Assembly: GCF_009914755.1 (NCBI RefSeq)
Contig: NC_060930.1
DNA from: the human T2T-CHM13v2.0 reference genome, Homo sapiens
Length of the DNA: 64,000 nt
Strand: one strand, 5' to 3'
The notes under the pieces were generated by a model, which ran no database searches, was not told the DNA's origin, and was given only the letters and a program-made list of their open reading frames with translations. The position numbers and the translations under genes were made by a program. This document shows, piece by piece, positions 5,830-64,000 of the stretch. Positions within the stretch are counted from its first letter, which is position 1. Every line of letters begins with the position of its first letter.

Positions 5830-60736
<54,907 letters not shown>

Positions 60737-61477
60737 GTAAGTGTTTCTTTGAAGAAAGTAAACTATGAAAACCAACATTTAAATAAATTCTGTTTGCAGT
60801 TATTATTAATTTTTTTGACCAGTTTATCCCTTTCAGAGCACAGTTCCTCAGAGAAATTACATCAGTTTATAAAAATAGCCACTAAGAGATTCTGGGCCCA
60901 AGATGTGTTAAGTACACAAAACAGACAAGTAGGAAAATCTTCTAGGTTATTTAAAGTTTATTACATTGTGCCCTGTTTTCTGTCTTGTGCTTAATTTCAG
61001 TCAGAAGTGACTTTTTTTTTTTTTTAATAAAACATGTTAGTGGCTTTATATTTCACATAAACTTTACTCAACAGAGAAACCAATTCCTAGTTTCAGGAGA
61101 AATCTGAGAAAGTGTGACCCAGATGTGAAAAGATGACGGGAAAAGGGGCTAGATGAGAGAGGAAGGGAAAGAGAACACAACGGAACGGAAAGAAGCAAAT
61201 CAGTAATTCGGCTGGGGATGGGTGTAGGAGAAACCCAAAGAAACAATTTCATCAGACACAGATCCAAGGTTCTCTCTCATTAAGGTCAGTCTACACTTCA
61301 GAAAACAGTGAGAAGGAGCCAGTCCACATTTCAGAAAATAGTGAGGAGAGGCCAGTCTCCAGACAGCTCTCCCAGCCCCAAAGAGGACAGCATGGCTATA
61401 GGAAAATGCAATGTGGCCAGGCGTGGTGGCTTATGCCTGTAATCCCAGCACTTTGGGAGGCCGAGGCAGGCGGATCA

Positions 61478-61795
<318 letters not shown>

Positions 61796-62722
61796 CTAAA
61801 TTCTCTAGTTTCCAAGGAATTCTCAAGGAGAGTCTCAAATCTTTCTCTTCCACCATCATAATTCTGCTTTGTGGGTGAATTTAACATTGTCTCTGCACAC
61901 ATTCTCTCTCTCCTTATTATTGAGTATCTGCTCCTGTTTCAGTGTGGCTTCCTGGGTCTGCACCAGGCATTTCTGGGCGTAGCTGTCCTGCACTGGGTGG
62001 GGGCTGCGAAGCTGCATTAGCTGTAGTTTGTCTCCTGTGAAGTCTCAGCTCTGCAGTGAGGCTCAGGCAGCCCAATGACGAAAGGCCTTTGGCGAGCCTT
62101 GCTGATAAAATGAGCAGGGATATTCACAGAGGTGCCCCCTCACTGTCTGCCAAAACACTGAAGGATTACTCAGCATGCTTGGTGTCAGTTCAGTGTACTT
62201 ATTTCCACCTAATTATTTAAAAATAACCATGTATGATATAATTTGGATGGTGCTCAAACCTATAGCCTGAGGGGAACCAAATTTGAGAGCCCCAGCATGT
62301 TTTCCCAGCAATTCTGCTACTGCAGCCTCTCTCCCAGGCCTTCTTCCTCCCACTGAAAGACAACAAGATCCTTCCTGTCCCGTTTCCTCATTTGGCCAAG
62401 GGGTTGGTGTGGGCCACTTTGGTTCCAAAGATCTTGAGAGACCCTCCCATAAAATTTTGGTGTCTTAACTGGATTGTGACAAATTGTTGAGAACCAAGAG
62501 TACATATGGTAACTGGAATATGAGATGAACTAGAAAGTCTCATGTACTGACTTGAATTGAGCACTAGTCACTCTGTTTTCTGGACATGTCAATTAATTAG
62601 GTAGAAAGCTGAAATCCCTGCTAAAAAGTGTGCTCTCTCTTCTGCTGCAGTATTGACATCTGTATTTCAGAAGAATGTTTTAAATGGGCATTTTTCTTGC
62701 GGGGGGGTTGGGCATTCTTTAG

Positions 62723-62848
62723 GACAAACCTCTGGAATTTTTGTCGTATTTTCTGCTGAAGAAATGTGGCAAAAAGATCAAAGATGTTGAAGGAAATGTT
62801 ATTCCAACAAAATGTGACCCAAAGACAACATTCAGTTTATTCATGAAG
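62723..62848 (+). CDS. ECT2L: Candidate alternative or vestigial in-frame ECT2L exon: DKPLEFLSYFLLKKCGKKIKDVEGNVIPTKCDPKTTFSLFMK
   Basis: cattctttAG| ... AAG|gtaaag; 126 nt, phase 0-0, no stops; completes a Dpy-30-like motif with the preceding exon. Confidence 0.6.
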
Positions 62849-64000
62849 GTAAAGTTGCTGCTGAATTTTTATGCCATTGCTTTTCTGTAGAGTTAGGCAC
62901 ATGTGATAAAGAAATTCATAAATCATTATATGAGCTCTACTGGGAAGCTTTAACTTGTCATTTCTCCAAAGAATTTTATTTTCATGAAGTATTACTAAAA
63001 TAGGGTGTTTTGTAGTTTCATAATATGAGTAACATTTAAGCCGCTTAAAAGCATAAACTGCAACATGTTAACTTGAGTAACACTATTTGGTTGTGGGGAG
63101 AAAGGTAGAAATTTGCATTTTGCTTTGACATTTATGCAATTGAGCCCTGAGAGAACTTAAGGGGAATTTTTTTTTGAGGGAGGTGAAACTAAGAATAGTT
63201 CTTTTTTTTTCTTAGTTGAGATTCAAATTCATTAAAGAAAAAAATGGGTTTAAAGCGAGTTCTGGCTGGGCGCGGTGGCTCACGCTTGCAATCCCAGCAC
63301 TTTGGGAGGCCCAGGCGGGCAGATCATTTGAGGTCAGGAGTTTGAGACCAGCCTGGCCAACATGGTGAAACCCCGTCTCTACTAAAAATACAAAAATTAG
63401 CTGGGCATCGTGGCATGCCTATAATCCCAGCTACTCAGGAGGCTGAGGCAGGAGAATCACTTGAACCCAGGGGGGTTCAGTGAGCCAAGGTTTGCTTGAA
63501 CCCGGGGAGGTTCAGTGAGCAGAGGTTGCAGTGAGCCAAGATCGCACCACTTTACTCCACCCTGGGTGACAGAGTGAGACTCTGTCGTAAATAAATAAAA
63601 CTAGTTCATCAGGCCAAAAAGAATAATTTTGCCAGTACTATATTAGGAATCCAAGCATTCTTGTTTACATGAAATAACCAGGATTCAAGAAATGCTGAGA
63701 ATTACATTGTCGTTCACATAACTGATTTCTATGTAGGGGAAAATACTGTTTTAGAACCATTTTATGTCCATAGAAAAGTCACCTGTCTTTGATGTTTGAA
63801 GGCGTAGGATGGCAGTCCCTAACACAATCTCACCATGGAGGGCTGCTAGGAGTAAGAGACTTGTGAGCACCTCTAGCAGGCAAATCATTTGTTGCCCTAT
63901 TAACCTGATATTCTGGAAGTATTTGTTAATGCTTCTTTAAAGGACAGTGCAGGGCAGGGCAGGAGCAGACATAGAGAACTGCTGGAGGCAGCATTCCCTC

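What the first reader, a model, noticed from the sequence alone, without database searches (positions are those of the whole stretch)
62723..62848. Hidden in-frame ECT2L exon completes a Dpy-30/RIIa-type docking motif
Seen: a 126-nt AG..GT-bounded, stop-free, phase 0-0 segment 2 kb after the exon ending ...SKEDS (phase 0). Spliced, it gives [27 protein letters not shown]. This aligns without gaps to the DPY30 motif as I recall it ([27 protein letters not shown]), with 13/27 identities including G-L, K-E, P-x-E-F-L and L-L-K. The canonical human ECT2L I remember runs EDS-ERNVV, skipping this exon and keeping only half of the motif. Known: Dpy-30/RIIa domains bind amphipathic helices and are common in motile-cilia proteins (DYDC1/2, NME5, AK7, ROPN1L). 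Inference: ECT2L ancestrally has a docking module between the DUF4347-like region and the RhoGEF domain, which is alternatively spliced or being lost in humans.
Basis: partly seen in the sequence, partly recalled or inferred. Interest (0 to 1): 0.85.

Follow-up and report, generated by a model that had tools for sequence, protein, structure and literature searches.

The report
ECT2L cassette exon completing a Dpy-30 domain
A 126-base alternative exon of the human ECT2L gene, left out of the reference isoform, supplies the second helix of an ancient Dpy-30-type dimerisation/docking domain, a module typical of proteins built into motile cilia.

Summary
Window 62723-62848 is an AG/GT-bounded, stop-free, phase 0-0 segment of 126 nt. 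Spliced to the exon ending at 60736, it gives ...[27 protein letters not shown].

It is not hidden: RefSeq already lists it as an exon of other ECT2L transcripts. The selected transcript skips it.

An open AG..GT frame alone is not beyond chance (132 such segments in 3.2 kb). The content is. ECT2L models across placental mammals include the exon, and the same motif is found in teleosts, molluscs, a hemichordate and ichthyosporeans.

- Pfam Dpy-30 (PF05186) matches across the junction in 20 of 50 orthologs at E<=0.01.
- Eight orthologs reach the gathering score.
- The human-identical orangutan segment scores only 14.6 bits against a cut-off of 22.
- An ECT2L-family profile finds solved Dpy-30 domains at E=7e-10 to 5e-7.
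- AlphaFold2 gives a confident helix-loop-helix that superposes on DPY30 and DYDC2.

Dimerisation, docking and human exon usage were not tested. "Being lost in humans" is not supported: all ten near-invariant motif residues are kept. This is a new member of a known kind, of moderate interest, made timely by a 2026 preprint that places an ECT2L dimer at the ciliary transition zone.

The parts
62723..62848 (+). 126-nt phase 0-0 cassette exon of ECT2L (42 codons), skipped in the selected transcript NM_001077706.3
   Evidence: Sequence and translation. Listed by the hub under 'exons of other transcripts'. Present in ECT2L protein models of many mammals.
62723..62767 (+). The first 15 codons (DKPLEFLSYFLLKKC): the loop end and second helix of the Dpy-30 motif, and the conserved part of the exon
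   Evidence: P, L, E, F, L and L are at least 90% conserved in 50 orthologs. Column conservation is 0.78, against 0.51 for the exon's last 27 codons. pLDDT exceeds 90 over residues 21-50 of the segment model.
62768..62848 (+). The last 27 codons of the exon: a poorly conserved linker, predicted to be disordered from about its seventh codon
   Evidence: Conservation 0.51. pLDDT is below 50 from residue 59 of the 71-residue model. Residues 556-607 of the full-length sheep model have pLDDT below 50.
60674..60736 (+). The end of the constitutive exon 60633-60736 ([21 protein letters not shown]): the first helix of the Dpy-30 motif
   Evidence: Pfam PF05186 positions 7-40 span this stretch plus the next exon in orthologs. 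L, G, L and L are at least 90% conserved.
62690..62722 (+). Acceptor region: a polypyrimidine tract interrupted by a run of seven G (62701-62707), then AG at 62721-62722. The TAG at 62720-62722 is an in-frame stop just before the exon.
   Evidence: The pyrimidine fraction at -20..-3 is 0.50, the second lowest of the 12 exons scored (the lowest is 0.33, the next 0.56).
62849..62854 (+). Donor site AAG|gtaaag
   Evidence: 7 of 9 matches to MAG|GTRAGT, which is typical for this gene's exons.

Best explanation
Window 62723-62848 is a genuine, evolutionarily old coding cassette exon of ECT2L. The end of the preceding exon encodes helix 1 (...[16 protein letters not shown]). This exon encodes the loop end and helix 2 (DKPLEFLSYFLLKK). 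Together they form a Dpy-30-type (PF05186) helix-loop-helix, placed after the DUF4347 domain and a long helix, and about 50 disordered residues before the DH/PH RhoGEF module. These points are shown.

The mechanism is inferred by analogy with DPY30, DYDC1/2, NME5 and AK7. Two copies of the motif pair into an X-type four-helix bundle. This dimerises ECT2L and forms a groove that docks an amphipathic helix of a scaffold protein, tethering the F-box/RhoGEF protein to a ciliary structure. Because the exon is 126 nt and phase 0-0, skipping it (as in the human selected isoform) removes helix 2 and hence the domain while leaving the rest of the protein in frame. Splicing could therefore switch the docking module on or off.
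For: - Anatomy.
- Inclusion in mammals: all 62 proteins found with the exon peptide contain it. The named ones are ECT2L of primates, carnivores, bats, pig and horses. The junction is ...SK(E/D)(D/N)(S/P)|DKPLEF.... The 120 best of 246 profile hits add pangolins, ruminants including Bos, camel, hippopotamus, rhinoceros, manatee, rodents, tree shrew, lemur and loris.
- Deep conservation: the motif is in representatives later named as scallop, oyster, Saccoglossus, many teleosts and two ichthyosporean-labelled records (the Nk52 label is Chromosphaera perkinsii per PMC6981761).
- Pfam PF05186 at the junction, profile positions 7-40 of 42: listed in 18 of 22 proteins at E<=1, six of them at or above the 22-bit cut-off. 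Listed in 6 of 16 distant motif-bearing representatives at E<=0.01, two of them at or above 22 bits, and in 0 of 3 exon-skipped ones. Listed in 20 of 50 at E<=0.01.
- Human-identical orangutan segment: PF05186 is the only family listed, at E=0.028 and 14.6 bits.
- Family profile A2 against the PDB: Dpy-30 motif protein 9nw3_7A at E=7.2e-10, human DPY30 at 6.1e-8 to 4.3e-7, Chlamydomonas DPY30 at 5.3e-7, DYDC1 at 2.2e-4, NME5 at 1.3e-3. Besides ECT2L itself, 23 of the 27 listed sequences are Dpy-30-domain proteins.
- Fold: helices 20-35 and 41-63 with pLDDT above 90 over residues 21-50. Foldseek ranks 1-24 are DPY30, COMPASS and ciliary entries, with probability up to 0.99, rmsd 1.1-2.2 A and 36-41% identity. 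The only two of 48,161 chains with Z>=5 are DYDC2 chains (Z 5.8 and 5.4, rmsd 1.6 and 1.7 A, 46 and 44 residues aligned).
- Context: zebrafish ect2l was among the Foxj1-induced genes tested, and its knockdown shortened motile cilia (PMC4199137, passages). A preprint assigns an ECT2L dimer to the transition-zone linker of bovine tracheal cilia (passages).
Against: - The human/orangutan peptide is below Pfam's cut-off (14.6 against 22 bits). PF05186 was not listed at E<=1 when the whole orangutan and langur proteins were scanned.
- Each half alone matches nothing.
- PF05186 did not reach E<=0.01 in 30 of 50 orthologs.
- Foldseek E-values are weak (0.28 or worse; none of 49 matches at E<=0.001). 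The tool warns that VIA Z-scores below 8 can reflect a common helical arrangement.
- In the full-length monomer model the motif has pLDDT of only 52-63.
- Of the three DPY30 groove hot-spot residues named in a review (Val62, Leu66, Leu69; PMC13063893), only the Leu69 equivalent is kept. By the alignment, Val62 and Leu66 correspond to Ala/Thr in ECT2L, so the groove, if present, is different.
- Conservation of the motif (0.75-0.78) is at the level of the other folded domains, not above it (rank 283 of 945 windows).
- Dimerisation, docking and human exon usage were not tested.
- The preprint's ECT2L assignment rests on fitting predicted structures, and the passages read do not say which part of ECT2L forms the dimer.
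Confidence: 0.8

Rival explanations
1. The domain works in other animals, but in humans the exon is effectively retired. The exon-skipped 904-aa protein is the functional product, and the transcripts that include the exon are minor splicing noise.
For: - The selected RefSeq transcript skips the exon (hub table), and the ECT2L chain deposited in PDB 11xu is the skipped form.
- The acceptor has a pyrimidine fraction of 0.50 with a G7 run.
- Catarrhine segments score lowest against PF05186.
- Two primate-type Alu-like repeats flank the exon.
Against: - The frame is open over 42 codons with canonical AG/GT.
- All ten residues that are at least 90% conserved are kept.
- The score-lowering I-to-T change also occurs in lemur, Meriones, Acomys, Pteronotus and Phyllostomus.
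- Two constitutive exons of the same gene have similar or weaker acceptor tracts (0.33 and 0.56).
- RefSeq keeps the exon in other human transcripts.
- Exon-skipped models also exist among non-human representatives (P0067, P0076, P0104), so skipping is not peculiar to humans.
Confidence: 0.12
2. The helix-loop-helix is homologous to Dpy-30 but does not act as a dimeric docking site. It packs within the molecule, for example onto the long helix after DUF4347 or onto the DH domain as an autoinhibitory element. ECT2L dimerises through another region.
For: - Two of three DPY30 groove hot-spot positions are Ala/Thr in ECT2L.
- The full-length monomer model runs helix 464-511 straight into the motif.
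- Many RhoGEFs are autoinhibited by elements upstream of the DH domain. This is general knowledge and was not tested here.
Against: - The proteins matched come from dimerisation/docking-domain crystal structures, COMPASS and ciliary complexes.
- The Leu69 equivalent and the G-L and P-x-E-F-L core are conserved.
- About 50 disordered residues separate the motif from the DH domain.
Confidence: 0.07
3. The resemblance is chance: a piece of intron that happens to be open and bounded by splice-like dinucleotides.
For: Open AG..GT segments are common here: 132 in 3.2 kb.
Against: - The exon is included in ECT2L models of dozens of mammals, and the motif is conserved out to ichthyosporeans.
- Profile E-values reach 7e-10 against solved Dpy-30 domains.
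- RefSeq annotates the exon.
Confidence: 0.01

Closest known systems
DPY30 dimerisation/docking domain (Pfam PF05186; PDB 3g36, 4riq, 4rt4)
   Same: - A helix-loop-helix of about 35 residues with the G-L...L...P-x-E-F-L...L-L core.
- 13 of 27 identities to human DPY30.
- Profile E=6e-8, and the model superposes at 1.1-2.2 A.
- The Leu69 equivalent is conserved.
   Different: - It is embedded in a roughly 950-aa F-box/DUF4347/RhoGEF/PH protein, not a 99-aa adaptor.
- The groove positions equivalent to Val62 and Leu66 are Ala/Thr.
- In mammals the motif is split over two exons, and the second can be skipped.
- Dimer formation and partner binding are not shown.
Ciliary Dpy-30-domain proteins DYDC1/DYDC2, NME5, AK7 and central-pair Dpy-30 motif proteins (PDB 8j07, 8wzb, 9fqr, 9nw3, 7n6g, 9d2f)
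   Same: - The best structural matches are DYDC2 chains.
- The best sequence match is a ciliary-tip central-pair Dpy-30 motif protein.
- ECT2L is likewise linked to motile cilia.
   Different: - Those proteins sit in radial spokes or the central apparatus of the axoneme.
- ECT2L was assigned to the transition-zone linker on the B-tubule, and it carries enzyme-type domains of another kind (F-box, DH/PH).
PKA regulatory-subunit RIIa-type D/D domains that dock AKAP helices (for example PDB 2ezw, 4f9k, 6xqk)
   Same: The same general X-type docking architecture. They appear as weak matches: RI-alpha D/D at E=0.66 and Z 4.6-4.8.
   Different: No Pfam RIIa match was listed in any scan. The sequence signature is that of Dpy-30, not RIIa.
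Canonical human ECT2L (NM_001077706.3, 904 aa; chain A1 of PDB 11xu)
   Same: The same gene and the same protein, apart from these 42 residues.
   Different: It lacks helix 2, so it holds only half of the motif (...SKEDS|ERN...). Exon-skipped representatives give no PF05186 match (0 of 3).

Membership tests
Dpy-30 motif (Pfam PF05186) | The human spliced peptide reaches the Pfam gathering score of 22 bits | tested here: not met
   The orangutan segment is identical to the human spliced peptide from RMIGQF to KKIK. It gives 14.6 bits at E=0.028, and PF05186 is the only family listed. PF05186 is not listed at E<=1 for the whole orangutan and langur proteins.
Dpy-30 motif (Pfam PF05186) | Orthologous ECT2L sequences reach the gathering score at the same position | tested here: met
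   At or above 22 bits in P0019, P0021, P0035, P0041, P0042 and P0043 (6 of 22) and in P0065 and P0089 (2 of 20). E<=0.01 in 20 of 50. Always profile positions 7-10 to 38-42, spanning the exon junction.
Dpy-30 motif (Pfam PF05186) | Significant profile-level similarity to solved Dpy-30 domains | tested here: met
   Profile A2: 9nw3_7A at 7.2e-10, DPY30 at 6.1e-8, DYDC1 at 2.2e-4, NME5 at 1.3e-3, Sdc1 at 1.5e-3. The mammal-only profile A1 gives DPY30 at 9.5e-4.
Dpy-30 motif (Pfam PF05186) | A helix-loop-helix fold that superposes on the DPY30 D/D domain | tested here: met
   AlphaFold2 gives pLDDT above 90 over residues 21-50. Foldseek probability is 0.94-0.99 with rmsd 1.1-2.3 A to DPY30 chains, but E>=0.28. 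VIA gives Z 5.8 and 5.4 to DYDC2, the only two of 48,161 chains with Z>=5. Short helical folds give weak statistics.
Dpy-30 motif (Pfam PF05186) | A homodimeric X-type four-helix bundle | not tested
Dpy-30 motif (Pfam PF05186) | A hydrophobic groove that binds an amphipathic helix (DPY30 hot spots Val62, Leu66, Leu69) | tested here: inconclusive
   By the alignment, only the Leu69 equivalent is kept (at least 90% conserved). Val62 and Leu66 correspond to Ala/Thr. The hot spots are taken from PMC13063893 (passages). No partner was tested.
RIIa D/D domain (PKA regulatory subunit type) | Sequence match to the RIIa family | tested here: not met
   No RIIa family was listed in the Pfam scans at E<=1 or E<=10. 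There is only a weak PDB profile hit to the RI-alpha D/D at E=0.66.

The most novel reading that the evidence does not exclude
A conserved splicing switch gives ECT2L a Dpy-30 docking domain or removes it. The exon-containing isoform is the one built, as a dimer, into the transition-zone linker of motile cilia, held by the Dpy-30 bundle docking a helix of a neighbour such as DZANK1. The exon-skipped isoform is a free, undocked RhoGEF/F-box protein. On this reading, structural models built from the canonical human sequence (the 904-aa chain in PDB 11xu) lack the element that makes and anchors the dimer.
Probability: 0.25. Interest if true: 0.65.

Novelty: new member of a known kind. Interest (0 to 1): 0.45.

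Why it matters
Dpy-30/RIIa docking domains are how many motile-cilia proteins are fastened to their scaffolds. ECT2L is a poorly studied F-box/RhoGEF protein. A zebrafish screen linked it to motile cilia, and a 2026 cryo-ET preprint now places it, as a dimer, in the transition-zone linker.

Its reference human isoform lacks half of an ancient Dpy-30 domain. That has practical consequences:
- It names a candidate dimerisation and anchoring element.
- It gives a point mutation to test, at the position equivalent to DPY30 Leu69.
- It warns that human-isoform-based models, interaction predictions and variant interpretation miss 42 residues that most mammals' primary gene models include.
- It raises the testable idea that splicing regulates the docking.

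I found no paper that connects ECT2L with Dpy-30. ECT2L plus 'Dpy-30' gave 0 papers. ECT2L plus 'DPY30' gave 1 paper, seen only as a search listing and judged unrelated from its title (lung-cancer exome sequencing, MLL2). The preprint has 0 occurrences of 'Dpy'. An automatic Pfam label does exist on two orthologs in the protein database (P0019 and P0042).

Tried and rejected
- Each half of the motif alone gave no Pfam family at E<=10. The exon peptide alone gave no PDB sequence match. The signal needs the spliced junction.
- The exact human spliced peptide was not sent to any tool, because joined sequences may not be typed. The orangutan segment, identical to human over the whole motif, stood in for it.
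The queue was full, and the tool was finally declared unavailable. There is therefore no dimer test, with or without the exon.
- I tried to learn which ECT2L residues are modelled in PDB 11xu. That entry does not appear in the Foldseek results, whose library ends on 2026-04-08. The preprint passages do not say which part forms the dimer, and its supplements are closed. The preprint cites another PDB code (30XP), so whether 11xu belongs to it is unknown.
- 'Decay in catarrhines' was considered and rejected. The substitutions that lower the score are shared with other mammals, and all near-invariant residues are kept.
- 'The motif is the most conserved part of the protein' was considered and rejected. 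It ranks 283 of 945 windows.
- Taxonomy look-ups for Chromosphaera found nothing. The Nk52 label was confirmed from a paper instead. Reading the 'Sdes' label as Sphaerothecum destruens is my recollection only; merely shows that species is an ichthyosporean.
- No DNA of other mammals was available, so dN/dS and PhyloCSF-type tests were not done.

Full report
**Observation**

Window 62723-62848 is preceded by AG (62721-62722) and followed by GTAAAG. It is 126 nt long and reads DKPLEFLSYFLLKKCGKKIKDVEGNVIPTKCDPKTTFSLFMK without a stop. Adding up the annotated coding exons shows that exon 60633-60736 ends in phase 0 with ...[16 protein letters not shown]. The candidate exon is therefore phase 0-0, and both inclusion and skipping keep the frame.

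The recalled canonical junction (EDS-ERN) is what the 904-aa ECT2L chain of PDB 11xu shows.

The hub's RefSeq table already lists 62723-62848 among 'exons of other transcripts' of ECT2L. The exon is annotated and alternative, not hidden.

**Chance**

Between 60737 and 64000 there are 1049 AG..GT pairs of 60-300 nt with a length divisible by three. Of these, 132 are stop-free in phase 0, and 51 of those are at least 120 nt. The open, splice-bounded frame is ordinary by itself.

The acceptor tract is 50% pyrimidine over -20..-3, with a run of seven G. That is the second lowest of the 12 exons scored, after 0.33 and ahead of 0.56. The donor matches 7 of 9 consensus positions.

No repeat covers the exon. 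Alu-like direct repeats lie at about 61414-61720 and 63263-63610. The minus strand shows only short stop-to-stop frames.

**Is it a real coding exon?**

A search with the 42-residue peptide among longer proteins gave 62 hits at E<=0.01 from 64 candidates. Every named hit is ECT2L of a mammal: orangutan, langur, New World monkeys, bear, dog, seal, bats, pig and horses. All carry the junction ...SK(E/D)(D/N)(S/P)|DKPLEF..., followed after the exon by ERN....

Two short unnamed records (P0017, P0018) are unspliced genomic reading frames that run through the exon.

A profile of 22 segments found 246 proteins at E<=0.001. The 120 listed are all mammalian ECT2L. They add pangolins, cattle, sheep, goat, deer, camel, hippopotamus, rhinoceros, manatee, squirrels, mole rat, murid and cricetid rodents, tree shrew, lemur and loris. 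Full-length models are typically 959 aa.

**Depth**

An exhaustive HMMER search with a bat ECT2L returned representatives at 50% clustering. In 16 of them the same region carries the motif ...(E/D)(G/A)L..L...(N/K)P(L/I)(E/D)(F/Y)L..(F/Y)L... Three are exon-skipped forms, and one (P0077) has a diverged second helix.

A profile of 13 distant segments gave names for several of them: Mizuhopecten, Argopecten, Ostrea, Saccoglossus and many teleosts. It also named two EukProt records labelled Nk52 and Sdes. Nk52 identifiers belong to the ichthyosporean Chromosphaera perkinsii (PMC6981761, passages). Reading Sdes as Sphaerothecum destruens is my recollection. The motif therefore predates animals.

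In a 50-sequence alignment, ten motif positions are at least 90% conserved: L514, G517, L518, L521, P529, L530, E531, F532, L533 and L537 in orangutan numbering. All ten are present in the human translation.

In a second, 38-sequence alignment, column conservation is:

| Region | Conservation |
|---|---|
| First 15 exon residues | 0.78 |
| Last 27 exon residues | 0.51 |
| Whole protein | 0.72 |
| RhoGEF domain | 0.78 |
| DUF4347 | 0.75 |
| F-box | 0.88 |

The 15-residue window ranks 283 of 945. That is domain-level conservation, not exceptional.

**Is it a Dpy-30 domain?**

Each half alone matches nothing. Across the junction, PF05186 is found at profile positions 7-40 of 42:
- It is listed in 18 of 22 proteins at E<=1. 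Six bat or unnamed sequences reach the 22-bit cut-off (22.2-25.6 bits). Carnivores, pig and horse score 14-18 bits, and New World monkeys 12-14.
- It is not listed for whole orangutan and langur proteins, nor for the two unspliced records.
- Scanned alone, the orangutan segment, which is identical to the human spliced peptide over the whole motif, gives PF05186 as the only family, at E=0.028 and 14.6 bits. The langur segment gives 15.3 bits.
- Among distant representatives, PF05186 appears at E<=0.01 in 6 of 16 motif-bearing proteins. Two reach the cut-off: P0065 at 24.8 bits and the Chromosphaera record at 24.1. It appears in none of the 3 exon-skipped proteins, nor in P0077.
- Over 50 exon-containing orthologs, it appears in 20 at E<=0.01.

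A mammal-only profile hits human DPY30 in the PDB at E=9.5e-4. Sixteen of the 21 non-self rows are Dpy-30-domain proteins, and the remaining five are Cullin-3 chains near E=0.7.

The broader family profile is decisive:
- a ciliary-tip central-pair Dpy-30 motif protein at 7.2e-10;
- human DPY30 at 6.1e-8 to 4.3e-7;
- Chlamydomonas DPY30 at 5.3e-7;
- DYDC1 at 2.2e-4, NME5 at 1.3e-3 and Sdc1 at 1.5e-3;
- AK7 at 0.12 and the PKA RI-alpha D/D at 0.66.

**Fold**

AlphaFold2 on the 71-residue segment with the 22-sequence alignment gives helices 2-18, 20-35 and 41-63. Mean pLDDT is 77, it exceeds 90 over residues 21-50, and the model is disordered from residue 59.

Foldseek ranks 1-24 are DPY30 crystal structures, COMPASS entries and ciliary entries. 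Probability reaches 0.99, rmsd is 1.1-2.3 A over 31-42 columns, and identity is 33-42% to the DPY30 chains. E-values are only 0.28 or worse.

The Foldseek-independent search of 48,161 chains gives just two chains with Z>=5, and both are DYDC2. 8wzb_A has Z 5.8, rmsd 1.6 A and 46 residues aligned. 8j07_c3 has Z 5.4, rmsd 1.7 A and 44 residues aligned. DYDC1, PKA D/D domains, SPA17 and DPY30 follow at Z 4.5-4.8, mixed with unrelated helical hairpins. The tool warns that such Z values are middling.

In a full-length sheep model, the motif (helices 521-536 and 542-560) follows DUF4347 (301-460, pLDDT about 86) and a long helix (464-511). A disordered stretch (556-607) then leads to the DH/PH module. 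The motif itself has pLDDT of only 52-63 there.

**Function**

This part is inferred. By homology, the motif should pair into an X-type bundle and offer a groove for an amphipathic helix.

A review names DPY30 Val62, Leu66 and Leu69 as groove hot spots, with L69D abolishing binding (PMC13063893, passages). By the alignment, the Leu69 equivalent is the near-invariant L518. Val62 and Leu66 correspond to Ala/Thr in ECT2L. Any groove would therefore have a different shape and partner.

Context fits a ciliary docking role. Zebrafish ect2l was among the Foxj1-induced genes tested, and its knockdown shortened motile cilia (PMC4199137, passages). A June 2026 preprint on bovine tracheal cilia assigns an ECT2L dimer to the B-tubule end of the transition-zone linker. 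The authors found it through predicted DZANK1 interactors and by fitting predicted dimers into a helical density (10.64898/2026.06.11.731632, passages). That text never mentions Dpy-30, and its supplements were not readable.

**Humans**

Nothing here measures exon usage. The 'being lost' idea is not supported. The frame, the splice sites and all near-invariant residues are intact. The I-to-T change that lowers the Pfam score is shared with lemur, two rodents and two bats. Exon-skipped models also exist outside humans.

The read-through frames of two unnamed mammalian records match the human intron on both sides of the exon. Downstream, 11 of 13 residues agree, and there is a similar stretch upstream. 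This is a weak hint of conserved flanking intron, as seen around regulated cassette exons.

**Novelty**

The exon is annotated, and two orthologs carry an automatic PF05186 label in the protein database. I found no paper linking ECT2L and Dpy-30. A survey of Dbl RhoGEFs that covers ECT2L does not mention it either (PMC5499878: 0 occurrences of 'Dpy', passages).

Verdict: ECT2L is a new member of a known kind, a Dpy-30-domain protein whose reference human isoform lacks half of the domain.

Noticed in passing
upstream of the window (CCDC28A at -33693..-14137); proteins P0067, P0071, P0229, P0245, P0284: Several ECT2L gene models carry an N-terminal CCDC28 domain (PF13270). They come from sheep, tree shrew, the teleost Centroberyx and two unnamed representatives. 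CCDC28A is the upstream neighbour of human ECT2L, so the adjacency seems conserved from fish to mammals. Read-through or fused models recur.
   Followed up: no
window 61414-61720 and 63263-63610: Two Alu-like elements in the same orientation flank the cassette exon, at about 1 kb upstream and 0.4 kb downstream. Whether they affect inclusion in primates is unknown.
   Followed up: no
window 62625-62722 and 62849-62890: The intron on both sides of the exon resembles the read-through frames of two unnamed mammalian records (P0017, P0018). Downstream, 11 of 13 residues are identical. Upstream, ISEECFKWAFFLRGGWAF resembles ISNECFKYEFLGLGVWIF, including the G-rich stretch. This hints at conserved splicing-regulatory flanks.
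   Followed up: partly
the exon after 62848 (outside the window); proteins P0043, P0044, P0067: The next coding exon (ERNV...EDN...) is itself skipped in some models. These go from the cassette exon, or from exon 60633-60736, straight to ERKLQ.DS.... The linker between DUF4347 and the DH domain therefore has more than one optional exon.
   Followed up: no
PDB 11xu chain A1: A solved-structure entry holds two chains of the 904-aa canonical (exon-skipped) ECT2L. It is absent from the fold library, which ends in April 2026. The transition-zone preprint cites another code (30XP), so the relation between the two is unknown.
   Followed up: partly
ECT2L N-terminus (orthologs, residues about 20-62): There are weak sub-threshold matches to DUF4508 (PF14969) in 23 of 50 orthologs at E<=0.01. 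In the full-length model the N-terminal 300 residues are mostly low-confidence helices.
   Followed up: no
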